A stretch of DNA of 64,000 nt, from NCBI GenBank assembly GCA_963675665.1, contig OY776510.1, positions 416,001 to 480,000 of the forward strand, read 5' to 3'. Made by a program: the position numbers and the translations under genes. This document shows positions 55,428-62,754 of this stretch, piece by piece. Under the pieces are notes generated by a model. That model saw nothing but the letters and a program-made list of their open reading frames with translations. It had not been told where the DNA came from and searched no databases. Each line of letters opens with the position of its first letter. The first letter of the stretch is position 1. This DNA is from Spirochaetia bacterium (GTDB lineage Bacteria > Spirochaetota > Spirochaetia > UBA9216).

Positions 55428-56000
55428 CTAAAAAGGTCTCTGCCTGCCGTCCGCTTTTCCACCATACATTCGGTTGTCGTCCCGGCTGCTCATTCCGCCC
55501 CGACCGAACATTCCGTCTTTATCGGCCATTCTTCCGAATCCGGTTTCGTTATCCACCCACGGCAGCTGATATGTGGTACCGTCAATTTCTACAGATTCCA
55601 CAAGCAGCTCTATATTTCCTTCAAGCGCCTCAAGATCGAACATCCTTCCCCGCCCCCCGGGCCCTGCCGCAGGTCCGGCATTCCATGGCATGGTCTCTTC
55701 ATCAACAATATAACCTTTAACTGTGATTTTATCTCCTTCGCTGACATAATCATAAAAAGCCATTGCTCCGGGGGCAATCAGAGTATAACTCTTACCGCCG
55801 GCAACCAGTTCCGGAACGGGAGATTCAAACTTTACCGTACCGGTTACCTCTGCCTGCTCAAGGTCTTCAAGATAACTGTTTCTTGCAAGCTCCCTGGGCT
55901 GCAGTTTAACCACACCGTCTTCATCTGCTTCCTGCGCGCCTGTCGCAAATACTGTCGCAGCAGCTGCAGACATGCATAAAATTAAAAATATTTTCTTCAT
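55428..56000 (-). CDS. Secreted accessory protein with Gly/Arg/Met-rich segments
   Basis: Signal peptide MKKIFLILC..VFA; RBS AGGAG; first gene of the sensor/regulator run. Confidence 0.72.
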   Translation of the reverse strand: MKKIFLILCMSAAAATVFATGAQEADEDGVVKLQPRELARNSYLEDLEQAEVTGTVKFESPVPELVAGGKSYTLIAPGAMAFYDYVSEGDKITVKGYIVDEETMPWNAGPAAGPGGRGRMFDLEALEGNIELLVESVEIDGTTYQLPWVDNETGFGRMADKDGMFGRGGMSSRDDNRMYGGKADGRQRPF

Positions 56001-56062
56001 TTTTTGCTCCTATAAAAAGTCAACCACAAGCTAAAAATATAAGCTTATGATCTGGTCGGATA

Positions 56063-57175
56063 TCAACCGACCATTACAGCTTCCCATGCTGCTGCCTGCA
56101 TTTCCCTGTATTCTTTTCTAAAAGCCATTTTCATCGGATCAAACGGCTCTCTGGTTTTTAAAATTGTATATACCAAAGTGCTCATCTTGCGGGCGGCAGC
56201 TATTACACTCTTACCCGAGCCTTTCTGCTTCTTCATCGCTGCATACTTCGTCATTATTCGGTACGTCCCGGTCTTCTTTTGCATACGAACCATTCCCATC
56301 ACCATCTGTACGAAGGCTGTCCTCAGTTCTACAGGCCCACGCTTTGTTATATGTCCATGATGTATTGTCATATTTGAGTTCTGCACCCATGGCACAAGCC
56401 CGGCGTTTGCTGCATATTTCTTCGCACTATCATATCTGCCGATATCGTCTGTATAGGCTCTTACTGTTGCTGCTGTTATTAGACCCACGCCTGGTATTGT
56501 CTGCAGAAGCTCAACATCTTCATCGTCCTCCACAAGCTCAGCCAAAACCTTTTCAAGCTGCTTGACTTGCGATGCCTGATTATCTATCATATCCAGTAAC
56601 GGTATTACCGTTTTGGCAGCGCTTCCGTAAAAGTCGTGGTCCTCGAGACCGTTCAGGATTCGCTGCCTTTCTTTTTTACTCTGCAGCTGTCCGCGTTTGG
56701 TCTCTATTCCATAACCAAGTAATAAGCCATGCACCTGGTTCTTTAACGACACAACAGATTTTACCAGTATCGACCTGGATTTCAGCACCCTTCGAATATC
56801 CTCACTCTCTTGGGAACATAATATCGATTCAGGCAGCATGTCTTTCTCAAGAAACTCCGCCAGGGTGCGTGCATCATGTTTGTCTGTCTTTTTTACAGAT
56901 TCATTCACTACCTTGAATTTCAAAGTATTCACTACAACCACTTCGACTCCAGCCTTTAACAGTTTATTGCGGAAATAACGGGCATTCCCGGTTGTTTCCA
57001 CCGCTGCTCTCAACTCATATTCCTCTTCACAATATTCATCCAGCATTTTCAGAAATGCTCCATAACCATTTCCGCTGGTCGGATACATTCCCAATTGATC
57101 AATTTTTCGGTCTTCACTTAAAAGGCATACTGTAAACTGCGTTTTGTGAAGATCCACGCCAATACTCATCTTCAT
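56063..57175 (-). CDS. IS110-family DEDD recombinase/transposase
   Basis: IGVDLHK, VETT, KTDKHDA (DEDD RuvC); IPGVG, GLVP...S, I.KRG, AARK. Confidence 0.95.
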   Translation of the reverse strand: MKMSIGVDLHKTQFTVCLLSEDRKIDQLGMYPTSGNGYGAFLKMLDEYCEEEYELRAAVETTGNARYFRNKLLKAGVEVVVVNTLKFKVVNESVKKTDKHDARTLAEFLEKDMLPESILCSQESEDIRRVLKSRSILVKSVVSLKNQVHGLLLGYGIETKRGQLQSKKERQRILNGLEDHDFYGSAAKTVIPLLDMIDNQASQVKQLEKVLAELVEDDEDVELLQTIPGVGLITAATVRAYTDDIGRYDSAKKYAANAGLVPWVQNSNMTIHHGHITKRGPVELRTAFVQMVMGMVRMQKKTGTYRIMTKYAAMKKQKGSGKSVIAAARKMSTLVYTILKTREPFDPMKMAFRKEYREMQAAAWEAVMVG

Positions 57176-57210
57176 GTTCTATCTCCAATAGTTTGAAGCA
57201 GTGCCTATAC

Positions 57211-57363
57211 GGTGAATTGTTCCATTCTCCTATCCGGTCTCGCAGACCATTGAATGTTTCGGTTACGGCTCTTCAATCTCCTAAACGGTCTCGCGGACCA
57301 GTAAAAATGTCGAACAGTAACCTTACTGCCTCAATTAAAGTTAAGGCAGTATATCAATTCACC
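57211..57363 (-). ncRNA. Putative bridge RNA (seekRNA) of the IS110 element
   Basis: Outer stem GGTGAATTG/CAATTCACC, 5' hairpin, two repeated internal loops capped by GGTC-YGCGA-GACC whose strands match the target and donor junctions. Confidence 0.75.
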
Positions 57364-57414
57364 AGCTCATGAAGACTTTTTATCATTCCTCCTAAAAAGT
57401 TGTTACTTTTATAA

Positions 57415-57430
57415 AGCAATATGCATACCA
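57415..57430 (-). promoter_or_regulatory. Sigma54 -24/-12 promoter
   Basis: TGGTATGCATATTGCT (GG-N10-GC). Confidence 0.78.
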
Positions 57431-57509
57431 AAAAAATATTGAAAAAGAGGATTTATTGGGTATTTTTTAGAGATTTAACAGTGAATTTAAGGATTTCAAA
57501 ATGCCTCCC

Positions 57510-57552
57510 GGGGCAATTTTCCCCATCATAGAATTCAGAGGATTTTTGCCCC
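57510..57552. promoter_or_regulatory. Paired upstream activator sites for an NtrC-family protein
   Basis: GGGGCAATTTTCCCC and GAGGATTTTTGCCCC, 80-120 bp upstream of the -24 box and separated from it by an AT-rich spacer. Confidence 0.58.
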
Positions 57553-57599
57553 GAAGATTGCAGAACCCGTGCTTAAAAAGCAACAGGCCCGGTGCAGGT

Positions 57600-58043
57600 T
57601 TAAATTACTGATTCAGATTCAACGGTATCCGGTGAAGATGAATATGCAAGCTCTTCATCAGTAATCTCATCAGCTTCTGTATCACCGCCGTTTTCGGTTC
57701 TGAAATCTTCCTTACCGAATGTCGGCCTTTTCTCAATATACTCTGCTACGAGTTTTAACCTTGATCTCGGATTTCCTTCCCTGTCTTCCCAGCGGTCCTG
57801 TTTTAATCTTCCTACTATACGGACTCCCTTGCCTTTGGAGAAATTGTTCTCACTGTAGGTTGCAAGCCTCGTCCATGCTTCAATATCCAGAAACGTCACT
57901 TCTTTCTGGTATTCATCATCCTGTTTATAATAACGGTTTGATGCCACGGTAAAGTTACAAACCTTCGTACCTTTAGGCGTTTCACTTAGAATCGGATCTC
58001 TGACAAGATTTCCTTCAATTATTACTGAGTTAACAGAATTCAT
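57600..58043 (-). CDS. ssb: Single-stranded DNA-binding protein
   Basis: N.V.IEGNLVRDP, F.VASNR, F.D..AW, KG..V..VGRL.QDRW. Confidence 0.92.
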   Translation of the reverse strand: MNSVNSVIIEGNLVRDPILSETPKGTKVCNFTVASNRYYKQDDEYQKEVTFLDIEAWTRLATYSENNFSKGKGVRIVGRLKQDRWEDREGNPRSRLKLVAEYIEKRPTFGKEDFRTENGGDTEADEITDEELAYSSSPDTVESESVI

Positions 58044-59406: not shown

Positions 59407-62400
59407 TTACAAACTCAGCCTTGAAAGGTCCTTGGGAATATCCTGATATATCTGCAGCCGGTAATCTTCGACCGGATAAAATACCGCCCGTGAATTCAAA
59501 TATGAAAGATTAACCGTATCCGGCTCTACAAGCGAGTTCGGATCACGGGAAAGTTTATCGTAATATTCAACCGAATCGGTAAGAAGCACCATTGCTTCCG
59601 CATTTTTTTCCGGTTCACGGCTTCTCTCATACAGACGGTATTTGGTAACTCCCAGGTTATTGCTTACCTTCATCATATTCTCAAGCAGGGCCCGATGCTC
59701 CGGAATCTCATCAATAAGCAGGTAATTAATTGACGAATATTCTTTACTGAGCAAATCAAGAAGATGTGTATAGTATCCCTCAGCAAGATAATAATCGTTT
59801 CGGTTGAACAGAGTATTGGCTGTTGAGTACATCAAAGCCCTGTCTACGGAAAACCCGCCGGCTGTATCATAAAACTCGATCAAAGCCTCTCTATAATTCT
59901 TGTTATAATACTGTATATAACCTTTTTTGTATTTCAATATCTCGGAAGAATATTCATTCAGTTCGGCTTTGGTATAATACTCAAGCGCCAGGTCATAATC
60001 TCCGCTGATATAATACGATAAATCTCCCAGGTTGGAAAAAATCATGCCGAATTCAGGTTTCGGCTGTATCTGCCTGTTGGCTATTGCTTCATCATACCGT
60101 TCGGCCGCTTTCTGATAAAACTCTTCGGCATCCAGATAATTCTCCTGTTCATACAGGATCATCCCTTTACGGTTATACGAATCGATCAGTAAACCGTTTC
60201 GGGTGCGGGTCAGCGGGTCTGTATTTTCAAAAAGCCAGATTGCTGCATTAAGCGCTTTCTCTTCCTCTTCCGGAATGTTGATAATACCAAAATAACGGGC
60301 AAGTTCATAATGTATTTCCGGAAGTTCCGCCTCTACAGAACGTGCTTTCATCAGGATCTCTCTTACATCCTCAAAACGGCCGCTGTCAATCAGATATCCT
60401 GCCAGTTCGGCATAAATGTCCGGCTCAATATCCGCTTTCGCATTCTGTTTAAAAGCATCATAAAGATTCATTGCTTCAGTATGGTTATCTGTTCTGATAA
60501 AATACCGCAACATTCTGAACAGAATCTCATCTCTGCCGCCGTACAGTTCAAGCAGCTTGGCATAATTAAATCTTGCCTCTTCATATCGTGATGGATCAAT
60601 TTCCCTTGCCCATTCCATATAGGTATCACCGAGCATCAGACGGGCTTCATAATCATTAAGGTGATCAAAAAGTAAATCAGTTAAAAGCTTTTCAGCTTCC
60701 GGATACTTGCCTAGAATCTTAAATTCCAGTTCGGCATAATCCAGCACAGCCTCGCGTTCATCCGGGTACCAGCCGAGCAGCTGCTCGTATTTTTCTTCGG
60801 CAAGAAGATATTGTTTATTATCTTCAAATGATTCTGCATATCTGTAAAACCAGTTTTTCTTTTTCCATTCACTGAATGCACGTTCGAAATATGAGTTGGC
60901 CTGTTCGTTGTTTCCCTGCGGAATTTCTTCATAGCCTTTTTTATATAGCGATTCAGCGTGCAGAGGGGTATATACAAACCGATACCCTAAAAACAATAAT
61001 AGCATCAGGGAAGCCGCTGCTATCAATGCTGTTCTGAACATCGGTATAAAGTTTTTTCTGAACATATAGCTGAAGGAACTCTTTTCTTTCTCGAATTCCT
61101 CAGCGGTGCGCTTTTCATACTGCGCCGGGATTTTTACCTTCTTTCCGGTTATTTTCGATACGACATTCCCAATTTCTCTTGCGCTGGAACCGGAAGTCAT
61201 CGCCTCAATGAGTTTATCCAGATTTTCACCGGTAAGCCGCTTTTCTCCTATCAGCTCCTCAATTATGAGCTTGAGATTCCGAGGCATTTGACCAAGAGTC
61301 TTTTTAAGTTCTATAAACTCATCATCGGGAATGGCGTAACTTTCATCGGAATACGCATCGTCAAAATCACCGCTTTCATCCGCAGAAGGAACATCAAGAC
61401 TTTCAAGATGCCCCATGTCTTCAGCAGGTTCTTCATCTACTCCGAATTCCTGCCCCAGATCTCCGAGACTGAACTCTGAAGCTTCAATATCATCGCCGTC
61501 TATCTCTCCTAGACTGAAATCTTCAAGACTGAATTCATCCTCTCCGGAGTCATCGGAACTTTCCATATCGGAGCCGAAGTCGCCGACCTCGGATTCACCG
61601 AGTTCATCCATGTCGGTGTCGAAGCCGGCCGTGTCGAGCTCACCGGCATCAGGTTCGCCCAGGTCATCCATGTCGGCGTCGAATTCGCCGGTGTCGAAGT
61701 CAGCCGTGTCCAGCTCTCCGAGGTCATCCATGTCGGTGTCGAAACCGGCCGTGTCGAGTTCACCGGCATCAGGTTCGCTCAGATCATCCATGTCGGCTTC
61801 GAATTCGCCGGTATCGAAGTCAGCCGTGTCCAGCTCTCCGAGGTCATCCATGTCTGTGTCGAAGCCGGTCGTGTCTATCTCACCGGCATCAGGTTCGCCC
61901 AGGTCATCCATATCGGCGTCGAATTCGCCGGTGTCGAAGTCAGCCGTGTCCAGCTCTCCGAGGTCATCCATGTCGGTGTCGAAGCCGGTCGTGTCGAGCT
62001 CACCGGCATCAGGTTCGCCCAGGTCATCCATGTCGGCTTCGAATTCGCCGGTATCGAAGTCGGCCGTGTCCAGCTCTCCGAGGTCATCCATGTCTGTGTC
62101 GAAACCGGCCGTGTCGAGTTCACCGGCATCAGGTTCGCCCAGGTCATCCATGTCGGCGTCGAATTCGCCGGTATCGAAGTCAGCCGTGTCGAGTTCATCA
62201 GCATCAGGTTCGCCCAGGTCATCCATGTCGACGTCAAAATCGCCGGTATCGAAGCCGGTCGTGTCTATCTCACCGGCATCAGGTTCGCCCAGGTCATCCA
62301 TGTCGGCTTCGAATTCGCCGGTATCGAAGCCGGTCGTGTCGAGTTCATCGGCATCAGTAATCTCTTCACCAGAACTTTCAAGATCAAACGAATCAAGATC

Positions 62401-62754
62401 CGCATCGAAACCTTCCGCTTCCAGGGCATCCATCTCTTCGAATTGATCCCCGGAAGAGGATTCTTCTGCAAGCTCTTCGTCGAGCCCCGAAAGTAATTCT
62501 TCAGGAAGATTATAATCGCCCTCAAATTCATCCGGTTCAGCTTCTGAATCTGTCGGCTCCTCGGCAAAAAGGGATGATTCTTCCAGAACATCTGTATCAT
62601 CCTCATCGAAAAGCGCACTCAAATCTCCGATCGATTCAGCTTCAGGCGGAGTAATATCCGGCATAACTTCACCGCGCTGTCTGCGTATCTCCTCTTCGTT
62701 GCCGAGACGAGTCAGATCTGTCTTAAAATCGTCTATTTCTTGAATCTGGGGCAT
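59407..62754 (-). CDS. flcA: Spirochaetal flagellar collar protein FlcA-like (acidic N-terminus, TM, TPR periplasmic domain)
   Basis: MP....F...L..LGNE...R..RGE start, P.NLK..IEE motif, single TM, TPR array; recognised from family memory, not searched. Confidence 0.72.
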   Translation of the reverse strand: MPQIQEIDDFKTDLTRLGNEEEIRRQRGEVMPDITPPEAESIGDLSALFDEDDTDVLEESSLFAEEPTDSEAEPDEFEGDYNLPEELLSGLDEELAEESSSGDQFEEMDALEAEGFDADLDSFDLESSGEEITDADELDTTGFDTGEFEADMDDLGEPDAGEIDTTGFDTGDFDVDMDDLGEPDADELDTADFDTGEFDADMDDLGEPDAGELDTAGFDTDMDDLGELDTADFDTGEFEADMDDLGEPDAGELDTTGFDTDMDDLGELDTADFDTGEFDADMDDLGEPDAGEIDTTGFDTDMDDLGELDTADFDTGEFEADMDDLSEPDAGELDTAGFDTDMDDLGELDTADFDTGEFDADMDDLGEPDAGELDTAGFDTDMDELGESEVGDFGSDMESSDDSGEDEFSLEDFSLGEIDGDDIEASEFSLGDLGQEFGVDEEPAEDMGHLESLDVPSADESGDFDDAYSDESYAIPDDEFIELKKTLGQMPRNLKLIIEELIGEKRLTGENLDKLIEAMTSGSSAREIGNVVSKITGKKVKIPAQYEKRTAEEFEKEKSSFSYMFRKNFIPMFRTALIAAASLMLLLFLGYRFVYTPLHAESLYKKGYEEIPQGNNEQANSYFERAFSEWKKKNWFYRYAESFEDNKQYLLAEEKYEQLLGWYPDEREAVLDYAELEFKILGKYPEAEKLLTDLLFDHLNDYEARLMLGDTYMEWAREIDPSRYEEARFNYAKLLELYGGRDEILFRMLRYFIRTDNHTEAMNLYDAFKQNAKADIEPDIYAELAGYLIDSGRFEDVREILMKARSVEAELPEIHYELARYFGIINIPEEEEKALNAAIWLFENTDPLTRTRNGLLIDSYNRKGMILYEQENYLDAEEFYQKAAERYDEAIANRQIQPKPEFGMIFSNLGDLSYYISGDYDLALEYYTKAELNEYSSEILKYKKGYIQYYNKNYREALIEFYDTAGGFSVDRALMYSTANTLFNRNDYYLAEGYYTHLLDLLSKEYSSINYLLIDEIPEHRALLENMMKVSNNLGVTKYRLYERSREPEKNAEAMVLLTDSVEYYDKLSRDPNSLVEPDTVNLSYLNSRAVFYPVEDYRLQIYQDIPKDLSRLSL
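61605..62350. repeat. Intragenic tandem repeat: about 4.75 x 120 bp (two alternating 60-bp subunits) plus about 2 x 75 bp
   Basis: Encodes (DMDDLGEPDAGELDTAGFDT DMDDLGELDTADFDTGEFEA)n. Confidence 0.95.

What the first reader, a model, noticed from the sequence alone, without database searches (positions are those of the whole stretch)
57211..57363. IS110 bridge-RNA-like ncRNA whose guide loops read out its own target and donor
Seen: on the transposase strand the 5' noncoding end folds into an outer stem (GGUGAAUUG/CAAUUCACC), a 5' hairpin (57324-57351) and two sequence-related internal loops, each capped by GGUC-YGCGA-GACC. Loop 1 carries UUUUUACU and UUUAGGAG, matching the reconstructed empty site TTTTTG-CT-CCTAAA with one mismatch. 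Loop 2 carries CAUUC and AUAGGAG, matching the circle junction ATCATTC-CT-CCTAT. Established: IS621 bridge RNAs have this hairpin/target-loop/donor-loop order and a CT core. Inference: this is an intact, programmable RNA-guided recombinase from a spirochaete-like host, with long right-hand guides (7-8 nt including the core) and the CT-core strand opposite to the transposase strand.
Basis: partly seen in the sequence, partly recalled or inferred. Interest (0 to 1): 0.85.

Follow-up and report, generated by a model that had tools for sequence, protein, structure and literature searches.

The report
Bridge RNA aimed at ribosome-binding sites
This is a real guide RNA carried by a small jumping gene: it steers insertion into the short gap between a gene's ribosome-binding site and its start codon, and its guide arms are arranged the opposite way round from the textbook example.

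Summary
Window 56007-57388 (- strand) is a 1382-bp IS110-superfamily element with an intact DEDD/Ser recombinase and 15 near-identical copies in this genome. Its 5' end encodes a bridge RNA of about 153 nt (57363-57211): outer stem, 5' hairpin and two internal-loop stem-loops. This fold is supported by covariation across 57 relatives. All 15 copies sit between a Shine-Dalgarno GGAG and an ATG, in the same direction as the gene. The element's right end (..TATAGGAG) restores the Shine-Dalgarno sequence.

Three of the four guide arms are confirmed by covariation. The loop 1 3' arm reads the left flank (7 nt including the core). The loop 2 5' arm reads the element's first 5 nt. The loop 2 3' arm equals the invariant right end. 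It fits better anchored on an invariant CAU opposite the ATG.

The reversed arm order, 6-10-bp subterminal inverted repeats and 7/3-bp terminal extensions match the IS1111 type, although the RNA lies upstream as in IS621. IS900 is already known to target translation starts. Verdict: a real, probably active new variant of a known kind. No expression data.

The parts
56007..57388 (-). Whole insertion sequence, 1382 bp, counting one copy of the AG core
   Evidence: 15 copies of identical length share these ends. Assembly contigs of 4 runs break at 56007 and at 57391-57398, and depth over the IS is about 9-14 times that of the flanks.
57389..57395 (-). Left target half TTAGG-AG, a host Shine-Dalgarno sequence. 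The last two bases are the AG core (CT on the + strand).
   Evidence: Identical to the loop 1 3' arm. Positions -7 to -5 covary with that arm across 48 RNA species.
57384..57388 (-). Element start GAATG, the right half of the donor site
   Evidence: Complementary to the loop 2 5' arm CAUUC. 44 of 53 species are perfect Watson-Crick and 50 of 53 with G-T wobble; covariation is seen at +2, +3 and +4.
57374..57383 (-). Left subterminal inverted repeat ATAAAAAGTC. It also holds a TG-extended -10-like TAAAAA (57382-57377).
   Evidence: Reverse complement of 56021-56012. The perfect run has a median of 9 (range 6-10) in 42 distinct elements. The promoter role is inferred.
57211..57363 (-). Bridge RNA core, from the outer stem 5' strand to the outer stem 3' strand. 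The transcript ends are unknown.
   Evidence: Fold z = -4.37. Model R1 finds 57 relatives. Structural covariation is shown.
57325..57350 (-). 5' hairpin (P2)
   Evidence: All 9 of its 9 pairs show changes on both sides (helix 2).
57261..57322 (-). Target-binding stem-loop (loop 1)
   Evidence: Helices 3-5. Its arms covary with the target flanks.
57301..57309 (-). Loop 1 5' arm CAU-UUUUAC, proposed to pair with the sense strand of the spacer plus ATG
Evidence: Weak support. The ATG-anchored register gives z = 4.0, 0 of 3000 shuffles, and 2.43 against 1.92 matches of 5. 12 of 15 own copies have a 6-nt spacer.
57278..57284 (-). [quoted passage not shown]
   Evidence: identity to the flank is 0.75 at -7 (null 0.35), 0.93 at -6 (null 0.66) and 0.95 at -5 (null 0.90). 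There is no signal at -8.
57222..57256 (-). Donor-binding stem-loop (loop 2)
   Evidence: Helices 6-7. Its arms match the element ends.
57252..57256 (-). Loop 2 5' arm CAUUC, the guide for the element's first 5 nt on the sense strand
57227..57233 (-). Loop 2 3' arm AUAGGAG, the guide for the bottom strand of the right end including the core
   Evidence: Nearly invariant in the family, as is the right end ..ATAGGAG. Because it does not vary, covariation cannot test it.
57193..57202 (-). Segment ACUGCUUCAA, which can pair with the 3' strand of the 5' hairpin instead of the hairpin's own 5' strand
   Evidence: On the MAFFT alignment A1, 80% of cells pair against 66.9% in shuffles, with 62 against 26.8 cells changed on both sides.
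56063..57175 (-). Recombinase gene, 370 aa
   Evidence: Pfam PF01548 (9.3e-18) and PF02371 (1.4e-17). D8, E60, D98, D101 and S267 are invariant in 10 relatives down to 32% identity. PDB hits: ISCro4 7.2e-16 and IS621 5.6e-15.
56007..56023 (-). Right end TTGACTTTTTATAGG-AG. It contains a -35-like TTGACT, the right inverted repeat GACTTTTTAT (56021-56012), a 3-nt extension AGG and the AG core, and it recreates a Shine-Dalgarno sequence.
   Evidence: Conserved in relatives found by protein similarity. The promoter and Shine-Dalgarno roles are inferred.
55998..56006 (-). Right target half: the 6-nt spacer CAAAAA and the ATG of the downstream 190-aa gene (55428-56000)

Best explanation
The stretch is the guide RNA of an active RNA-guided insertion sequence that aims at translation-initiation regions.

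Proposed cycle (inferred by analogy with IS621 and IS1111 elements). Excision joins the right end to the left end. This places TTGACT 17 bp upstream of TG-n-TAAAAA, and that junction drives the RNA and the recombinase gene. [quoted passage not shown] Loop 1 holds the target. [quoted passage not shown] Its U-rich 5' arm, with an invariant CAU, pairs weakly with the A-rich spacer and the ATG on the sense strand. Exchange at the AG/CT core places the element between the Shine-Dalgarno sequence and the ATG, in the same direction as the gene. The right end then supplies a new Shine-Dalgarno sequence at the original spacing.

What is shown: the element ends, the target class, the RNA fold, and three guide-DNA correspondences by covariation. 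What is inferred: transcription, the junction promoter, the chemistry, the role of the loop 1 5' arm, and low harm to the host gene.

In arm order, inverted repeats and end extensions the element follows the IS1111 plan. In RNA position and two-loop shape it follows the IS621 plan.
For: Copies and target class.
- There are 15 copies at 99.6-100% identity, each 1382 bp. All lie at GG-AG followed by 5-7 nt and then ATG, in the same direction as the gene.
- The left flank equals the loop 1 3' arm in 7/7 positions for 4 copies, 6/7 for 10 copies and 5/7 for 1 copy.
- Congeners G001 and G004 have the uninterrupted site.

Data set. They give 105 RNA hits and 102 distinct records.

Guide arms.
- Loop 1 3' arm against the left flank: 84 usable sites and 48 species; 2.85 against 2.14 matches of 4; 0 of 5000 shuffles reach this. 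Non-GGAG examples also follow the arm: L150 has CACAGAG opposite CACAGAG, and L072 has UUGAGAG opposite TTTAGAG.
- Loop 2 5' arm against the element start: 53 species, 4.79 against 4.27 matches of 5, 0 of 5000. Examples are CGUGC with GCACG, CAUGC with GCATG, CAUAC with GTATG and CACUC with GAGTG. Six of the nine imperfect species are explained by G-T wobble alone.
- Loop 1 5' arm: ATG-anchored z = 4.0. Own right flanks fit the arm better than 542 background sites (MWU p = 9e-5 at c=12). 12 of 15 own copies have a 6-nt spacer against 31% of 503 ORF-opening sites (p = 1.3e-4).

Structure and protein.
- Structural covariation is shown.
- The catalytic residues are invariant.
- Inverted repeats have a median perfect run of 9 bp.

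Literature. Durrant 2024 and Siddiquee 2024 give the reference geometries.
Against: - No RNA-seq run is available, so transcription, RNA ends and the junction promoter are untested. The -10-like hexamer TAAAAA lacks the final T, and the promoter scan of the linear window finds nothing there.
- The loop 1 5' arm matches real sites in only about 49% of positions against 38% by chance. CAU never varies, so its pairing with ATG cannot be shown by covariation. A 6-nt spacer could also be favoured by selection after insertion.
- 9 of 15 left flanks read ATAGGAG, which fits loop 2's arm better than loop 1's. At least 3 of these are right ends of miniature elements. That confounds target statistics in this genome.
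- L116 lies at a non-SD site that matches the 3' arm in only 4 of 7 positions.
- Related sequences are not independent, and the shuffles do not fully correct for this.
- The recombinase is about equally distant from IS621/ISCro4 and ISEc11 (22.9% identity). Its family placement is therefore open.
Confidence: 0.82

Rival explanations
1. It is a canonical IS621-type bridge RNA. [quoted passage not shown]
For: It has the same position (left end), the same hairpin/target-loop/donor-loop order, and a two-base core that reads CT on one strand.
Against: The arm whose sequence equals the left flank is the 3' arm of loop 1. The arm complementary to the sense strand of the element start is the 5' arm of loop 2. 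This is the reverse of the text of Durrant 2024 and of ISEc21 in Siddiquee 2024. The inverted repeats are 6-10 bp rather than 2-3 bp.
Confidence: 0.03
2. The folded left end is only a leader that controls recombinase expression. Site choice is made by the protein, or reflects survival of harmless insertions, and the loop-flank likeness is inherited end similarity.
For: The target left half and the donor left half are alike (..AGGAG). The GGAG part of both 3' arms hardly varies. A conserved alternative helix near the recombinase start hints at regulation. No RNA data exist.
Against: The variable positions change together in RNA and DNA at -7, -6 and -5 and at +2, +3 and +4. The exceptions are mostly G-T wobbles, as expected for pairing. 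The loop 2 5' arm does not covary with its potential RNA partner GAAUG (by eye). The system is homologous to systems shown by experiment to be RNA-guided.
Confidence: 0.06
3. The RNA guides recombination, but the loop 1 5' arm makes no specific DNA contact. Targeting is a half-site match through the 3' arm alone, and the A-rich 6-nt spacers reflect ordinary ribosome-binding-site composition or selection.
For: The effect sizes are small. The arm is low-complexity U-rich opposite A-rich spacers. 'Half-match' recombination is reported for IS621 (abstract of 10.64898/2026.08.31.748434).
Against: The ATG-anchored covariation is reached by 0 of 3000 shuffles. Own sites differ from background ribosome-binding sites in both fit and spacer length. 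L040 matches 9 of 10 positions and L116 has 6 contiguous pairs. The homologous arm of loop 2 clearly pairs.
Confidence: 0.3

Closest known systems
IS621 / IS110-group bridge RNA (Durrant et al. 2024, PMC11208160; structures 8WT6, 9T56)
   Same: The RNA is encoded in the long left end upstream of a DEDD/Ser recombinase. [quoted passage not shown] Each loop reads both strands around a 2-nt core (CT on one strand). The -35 lies in the right end and the -10 in the left end.
   Different: The arm order is reversed: here the 3' arms carry the long, core-including guides for the left halves, and the 5' arms read the right halves on the sense strand. The CT strand is therefore antisense to the recombinase. 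The inverted repeats are 6-10 bp, not 2-3 bp. The target-loop 5' arm fits natural sites poorly, and the loop 2 5' arm does not pair with the core. The protein is similar only in the C-terminal domain (about 59-62 bits).
IS1111-family seekRNA elements such as ISEc11 and ISPa11 (Siddiquee et al. 2024, PMC11187229)
   Same: The top-strand match lies 5' of the bottom-strand match. There are subterminal inverted repeats. The terminal extensions are 7 bp on the left (AG+GAATG) and 3 bp on the right (AGG) if the core is assigned to the left end.
   Different: The non-coding region is upstream, not downstream; the paper notes ISMtsp17 as such an exception. The repeats are 6-10 bp perfect against the usual 11-13 bp. 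The donor is read by a simple internal loop. Relatedness of the recombinase to IS1111 was not established (22.9% identity to ISEc11 over residues 96-353).
IS900 of Mycobacterium avium subsp. paratuberculosis (IS110 family)
   Same: It targets translation-initiation signals. The motif CATGNNNNNNTCTCCTT (PMC8141618) is the reverse complement of AAGGAGA-N6-CATG, that is a Shine-Dalgarno sequence, a 6-nt spacer and ATG, as here.
   Different: The motif as printed puts the CATG..CTCCTT strand in IS900's frame of reference, and by my recollection the transposase points against the target gene. Here the recombinase runs with the gene and the right end rebuilds the Shine-Dalgarno sequence. No bridge RNA of IS900 was examined here. 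Doran 1997 was seen only as a title in a reference list.

Membership tests
IS110 superfamily (DEDD recombinase elements) | N-terminal RuvC-like DEDD domain and C-terminal Tnp domain with a conserved Ser | tested here: met
   PF01548 and PF02371 both score above their cut-offs. D8, E60, D98, D101 and S267 are invariant. S267 aligns with a Ser of ISCro4.
IS110 superfamily (DEDD recombinase elements) | Sequence-specific, orientation-specific insertion with only a short shared core at both junctions | tested here: met
   15 of 15 copies have the same site class, the same orientation relative to the gene, and an AG core at both junctions.
Bridge RNA, IS621 type | RNA in the left end with a 5' stem-loop and two internal-loop stem-loops | tested here: met
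Bridge RNA, IS621 type | First loop covaries with the target and second loop with the donor | tested here: met
Bridge RNA, IS621 type | [quoted passage not shown] | tested here: not met
   The order is reversed in both loops (against the text seen).
Bridge RNA, IS621 type | The RNA is transcribed from a promoter rebuilt at the circle junction and is bound by the recombinase | not testable with these tools
   No RNA run is listed. The motifs TTGACT-17-TAAAAA were read from the sequence only, and the promoter scan finds nothing in the linear copy.
Bridge RNA, IS621 type | Match to a curated RNA family | tested here: not met
   Rfam 15 gives no match at E up to 1 in 55800-57700. This shows only that no curated model fits.
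IS1111 family (Partridge & Hall; Siddiquee 2024) | Subterminal inverted repeats (usually 11-13 bp; Durrant gives 7-17 bp) | tested here: met
   The perfect run has a median of 9 (6-10), and matches within the first 20 bp have a median of 12 and reach 19, in 42 elements. This lies at the short end of the stated range.
IS1111 family (Partridge & Hall; Siddiquee 2024) | Terminal extensions of 7 bp (left) and 3 bp (right) beyond the repeats | tested here: met
   AG+GAATG on the left and AGG on the right, if the core is assigned to the left as that paper does.
IS1111 family (Partridge & Hall; Siddiquee 2024) | Top-strand match 5' of the bottom-strand match in the RNA | tested here: met
   against.
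IS1111 family (Partridge & Hall; Siddiquee 2024) | Long non-coding region downstream of the transposase gene | tested here: not met
   212 nt lie upstream and 56 nt downstream.
IS1111 family (Partridge & Hall; Siddiquee 2024) | Transposase related over its full length to that of IS1111 | tested here: inconclusive
   Only one named IS1111-type hit was seen (ISEc11, 22.9% identity over residues 96-353, E = 1e-6). No reference tree was built.

The most novel reading that the evidence does not exclude
The target loop reads both hallmarks of a translation start at once. The Shine-Dalgarno sequence is read through the 3' arm on one strand. The start codon is read through an invariant CAU on the other strand, with a variable stretch sized for a 6-nt spacer and a register set by the ATG rather than by the core. 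The donor site (..AGG-AG-GA-ATG..) is a compressed copy of the same signal. As a result each insertion rebuilds a working ribosome-binding site, and the element spreads almost harmlessly, together with miniature elements that carry the same ends. The element would also be a living intermediate between the IS110 plan (RNA upstream, two simple loops) and the IS1111 plan (arm order, inverted repeats, 7/3 extensions).
Probability: 0.3. Interest if true: 0.72.

Novelty: new variant of a known kind. Interest (0 to 1): 0.55.

Why it matters
Bridge and seek RNAs are established, and tens of thousands have been predicted, so the existence of one more is not news. Three things here are useful.

1. The subfamily mixes IS621-type and IS1111-type features. 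That bears on how the guide RNA moved between element ends and on whether the two arm orders are one mechanism seen from opposite sides.
2. The target is a functional signal, the Shine-Dalgarno-to-ATG interval. Insertion runs in the same direction as the gene and rebuilds the Shine-Dalgarno sequence. This gives a mechanistic reading of the long-known habit of IS900 of targeting translation starts, and a model for low-cost spread.
3. The natural sites show a strong half-site and a weak half-site, which is relevant to the off-target behaviour of bridge recombinases.

Fifteen identical copies plus miniature derivatives in a complete genome make this a convenient test system.

Tried and rejected
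- Rfam 15 gave no match.
- RNA evidence: no RNA holder was listed among the 4 runs found, which come from one study.
- Contigs of those runs laid on 55600-57800 gave no contig that skips exactly the IS and no circle junction. One 'joint' (56026 to 57356, six other letters between, 20-nt sides) is too short to interpret and probably comes from another short element with similar ends.
- The promoter scan of the linear window found nothing on the - strand at the left end. It cannot see the junction.
- Loop 1 5' arm registers c = 8-11 and 13-17, and all registers with wobble allowed, gave no convincing signal. The best of them, c = 17, gave 49 of 2000 shuffles (Watson-Crick only) and 41 of 2000 (wobble) before correction for testing ten registers.
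- Pairing of loop 2's CAUUC with GAAUG inside the RNA, as in the MFE fold, was rejected as a conserved stem. The 3' partner does not follow the 5' changes (by eye).
- An antisense transcript was considered. Its arms would pair with the 5' halves of each strand, unlike any described system, so it was rejected by reasoning only.
- Placing the recombinase in the IS110 or the IS1111 group failed for lack of named reference sequences. The PDB and plasmid hits are equally distant.
- Literature: five searches found no paper in the held library that links a bridge or seek RNA to a Shine-Dalgarno or start-codon target. bioRxiv supplements are closed, so I could not see whether this family is among the 86 covariance models of preprint 10.64898/2026.10.21.760802.
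- The search of earlier findings returned nothing.

Full report
**What is there.**
On the - strand, window 56063-57175 encodes a 370-aa protein with the two Pfam domains of IS110-family recombinases: PF01548 (9.3e-18) and PF02371 (1.4e-17). Ten relatives down to 32% identity keep D8, E60, D98, D101 and S267. The solved IS621 and ISCro4 recombinases match the C-terminal domain (5.6e-15 and 7.2e-16).

The genome (one 5.15-Mb contig) holds 15 copies at 99.6-100% identity. Aligning their flanks sets the element at 1382 bp, window 56007-57388. It reads ..GG-AG|GAATGATAAAAAG ... TTGACTTTTTATAGG-AG|N5-7-ATG.

Two congeners carry the same neighbouring genes with an uninterrupted Shine-Dalgarno (SD), spacer and ATG (G001: GCAGGAG-AGAAAA-ATG; G004: AAGGAG-TGAACA-ATG). 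Contigs of four public DNA runs from one study break at the same ends and show about 9-14 times the flank depth.

**The observation.**
The 225-nt left end folds at -65.8 kcal/mol against -48.3 +/- 4 for shuffles (z = -4.37, 0 of 200). Rfam 15 has no match.

I built a covariance model from 22 relatives with a hand-written structure. It found 57 full-length matches in 63 sources. On that alignment:
- 93.7% of cells pair, against 81.2% in shuffles (0 of 500);
- 30 of 42 pairs change on both sides;
- sliding the partners drops pairing to 40.2% or less.

The alignment is fitted to the model, so these figures lean towards the structure. The compensatory changes in all five longer helices are nevertheless clear.

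**Target class.**
All 15 copies, and the relatives with intact ends, lie just after an SD-like ..AGGAG and a few nucleotides before an ATG that opens a gene in the same direction as the recombinase. These relatives come from genome MAGs labelled Oceanispirochaeta, Marispirochaeta, Syntrophales, Desulfobacterales, Treponema and Leptospira, and from metagenome contigs. The right end ..TATAGGAG puts a new SD at the same distance from the ATG. Whether the gene stays expressed is inferred.

**Guide arms.**
I extracted the four arms and both flanks for 105 RNA hits (102 distinct records) with a profile HMM and regular expressions. I tested them by shuffling RNA 'species' against sites. Records with non-canonical arm length or missing flanks were dropped before each test.

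(a) Loop 1 3' arm against the left flank.
- 84 sites and 48 species were usable.
- Identity over -8 to -5 is 2.85 against 2.14 (0 of 5000 shuffles).
- The signal lies at -7 (0.75 against 0.35), -6 (0.93 against 0.66) and -5 (0.95 against 0.90). There is none at -8. The guide is therefore 7 nt including the AG core.
- Examples: UACAGGAG with TACAGGAG in 6 of 10 Oceanispirochaeta copies, and CACAGAG with CACAGAG in L150.

(b) Loop 2 5' arm against the first five bases of the element.
- 53 species were usable: 44 are perfect and 50 pair if G-T wobble is allowed.
- 0 of 5000 shuffles reach this. Covariation is seen at +2 and +4 (0 of 2000 each) and at +3 (12 of 2000).

(c) Loop 2 3' arm.
- AUAGGAG and the right end ..ATAGGAG are both nearly invariant. 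They agree, but this cannot be tested by covariation.

(d) Loop 1 5' arm against the right flank.
- 78 sites and 42 species were usable.
- Only the register one base further gives a signal (3 of 2000 before correction for ten registers).
- Anchoring on the start codon (CAU opposite ATG, the next five RNA bases opposite the last five spacer bases) does better. With 66 sites and 32 species, matches are 2.43 against 1.92 of 5, z = 4.0, 0 of 3000.
- In this genome the used right flanks fit the arm better than 542 other WAGGAG-N5-8-ATG sites (p = 9e-5).
- 12 of 15 copies have a 6-nt spacer against 31% of 503 ORF-opening sites (p = 1.3e-4).
- The effect is small, CAU never varies, and selection on spacing is an alternative. 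I hold this arm's role at about 0.5-0.6.

**Results against a simple reading.**
- 9 of 15 left flanks read ATAGGAG. That is one mismatch to loop 1's arm and a perfect fit to loop 2's.
- At least three of these flanks are the right ends of miniature elements lying directly upstream; up to six by eye.
- L116 sits at a non-SD site that fits the 3' arm in 4 of 7 positions but the 5' arm in 6 contiguous pairs.

**Geometry and family.**
Durrant et al. [quoted passage not shown] Here the arm that carries the left-flank sequence is the 3' arm, and the arm complementary to the sense strand of the element start is the 5' arm. Rotating the site by 180 degrees restores the IS621 picture, with CT on the strand paired by the 3' arm. 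So the chemistry can be the same while the RNA and recombinase genes point the other way.

Siddiquee et al. 2024 (passages) report exactly this order for IS1111-family seekRNAs: the top-strand match lies 5' of the bottom-strand match, and the opposite holds for the IS110-type ISEc21. They define IS1111 elements by subterminal inverted repeats and by extensions of 7 bp (left) and 3 bp (right).

This element has GACTTTTTAT/ATAAAAAGTC repeats. The perfect run has a median of 9 (range 6-10), and matches within the first 20 bp have a median of 12 and reach 19, in 42 elements. Its extensions are AG+GAATG (7) and AGG (3). Its long non-coding region, however, is upstream, as in IS110-type elements; the paper names ISMtsp17 as an IS1111 exception of that kind.

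The recombinase is about equally far from IS621/ISCro4 and from the IS1111-type ISEc11 (22.9% identity). I therefore leave the placement open and describe the element as a hybrid of the two plans.

**Precedent for the target.**
Conde et al. 2021 (PMC8141618, passages) give the IS900 target motif as CATGNNNNNNTCTCCTT. This is the reverse complement of AAGGAGA-N6-CATG. They also cite Doran et al. [quoted passage not shown] Targeting of ribosome-binding sites by this superfamily is therefore known. What differs here is insertion in the same direction as the gene with SD regeneration, and the fact that the RNA logic can be read directly.

Five searches found no paper in the held library that connects a bridge or seek RNA with such a target. 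A 2026 preprint predicts 32,190 bridge RNAs with 86 models, many of which deviate from IS621 (section 8 read). Its supplements are closed, so this family may already be among them.

**Distribution.**
The RNA model matches 8 of 151 sampled genomes of the class, counting G000, and none of the three congeners searched. The closest recombinase in an annotated record is on a Thiospirochaeta perfilievii plasmid (76.6%). Patchy presence plus 15 identical copies points to recent gain and expansion.

**Limits.**
- No RNA run was listed, so expression, RNA ends and the junction promoter are inferences. The junction promoter is TTGACT, 17 bp, then a TG-extended TAAAAA. It is invisible to the scan of the linear window.
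- Half-match behaviour of IS621 (abstract only) and alternative transposition routes (abstract only) show that the mechanism of even the model elements is still being revised.

**Verdict.**
This is a real and probably active bridge RNA. Three of its four guide readings are confirmed. The fourth is doubtful in the stated register. The element is better compared with the IS1111 plan than with IS621. It is a new variant of a known kind, of moderate interest.

Noticed in passing
Genome G000 outside the window, e.g. C1:1454627-1454769, 2400712-2400821 and 2525930-2526039; directly upstream of the IS copies at 894809, 4930041 and 3764794: Miniature elements of about 100-160 bp carry the IS's ends. 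They start GAATGATAAAA plus a palindrome and end ..CCGCATCCATGCGG..TTTTTATAGGAG. Each lies after a GGAG and before a spacer plus ATG, and some are in tandem, including a triple array. Of 63 non-IS matches to GRATGATAAAA, 18 follow GGAG, and 13 have a recognisable right end within 420 nt. They carry no guide RNA, so they would have to be moved in trans.
   Followed up: partly
window 57193-57202 with 57325-57334 (- strand): The 3' strand of the 5' hairpin can instead pair with ACUGCUUCAA, just downstream of the outer stem and near the recombinase's own Shine-Dalgarno sequence. In 30 relatives 80% of cells pair against 66.9% in shuffles, with many compensatory changes. It may be a pseudoknot, or a switch between the guide RNA and the mRNA.
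   Followed up: partly
L078-L096 (Lentisphaeria and Victivallales MAGs, recombinase 32-40% identical): Their upstream regions carry ..GGAAAGGAGAUUAG.. and ..GUAUAGGAGGAUGG... This suggests that the same 3'-arm logic and SD-like target extend to a much more distant clade. Their ends and flanks were not analysed.
   Followed up: no
L046:2300-2380 and L074:1080-1110: L046 has its right end duplicated in tandem (..TGACTTTTTATAGGAG twice). L074 has the loop 1 cap and 3' arm duplicated (GACCGUGAAGGAG twice). These look like footprints of recombination at the element's own sites.
   Followed up: no
window 57355-57388 (- strand): The element starts GA-ATG directly after the host Shine-Dalgarno sequence. 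This opens a 10-codon frame (MIKSLHELVN) that ends inside the outer stem. The donor right half thus imitates 'spacer plus ATG' with a 2-nt spacer.
   Followed up: no
L116:180-200 and 1665-1680: One relative is inserted at a site without GGAG (..GACGCTA-AG|). There the loop 1 3' arm fits only 4 of 7 positions, but the 5' arm makes 6 contiguous pairs with the right flank. It looks like a natural 'other half' match.
   Followed up: partly
window 59407-62754 (- strand): A 1115-aa ORF with a long, very acidic N-terminal region of degenerate repeats (..DTxGFDTGEFDADMDDLGEPDAGE..), followed by a TPR-like C-terminal part.
   Followed up: no
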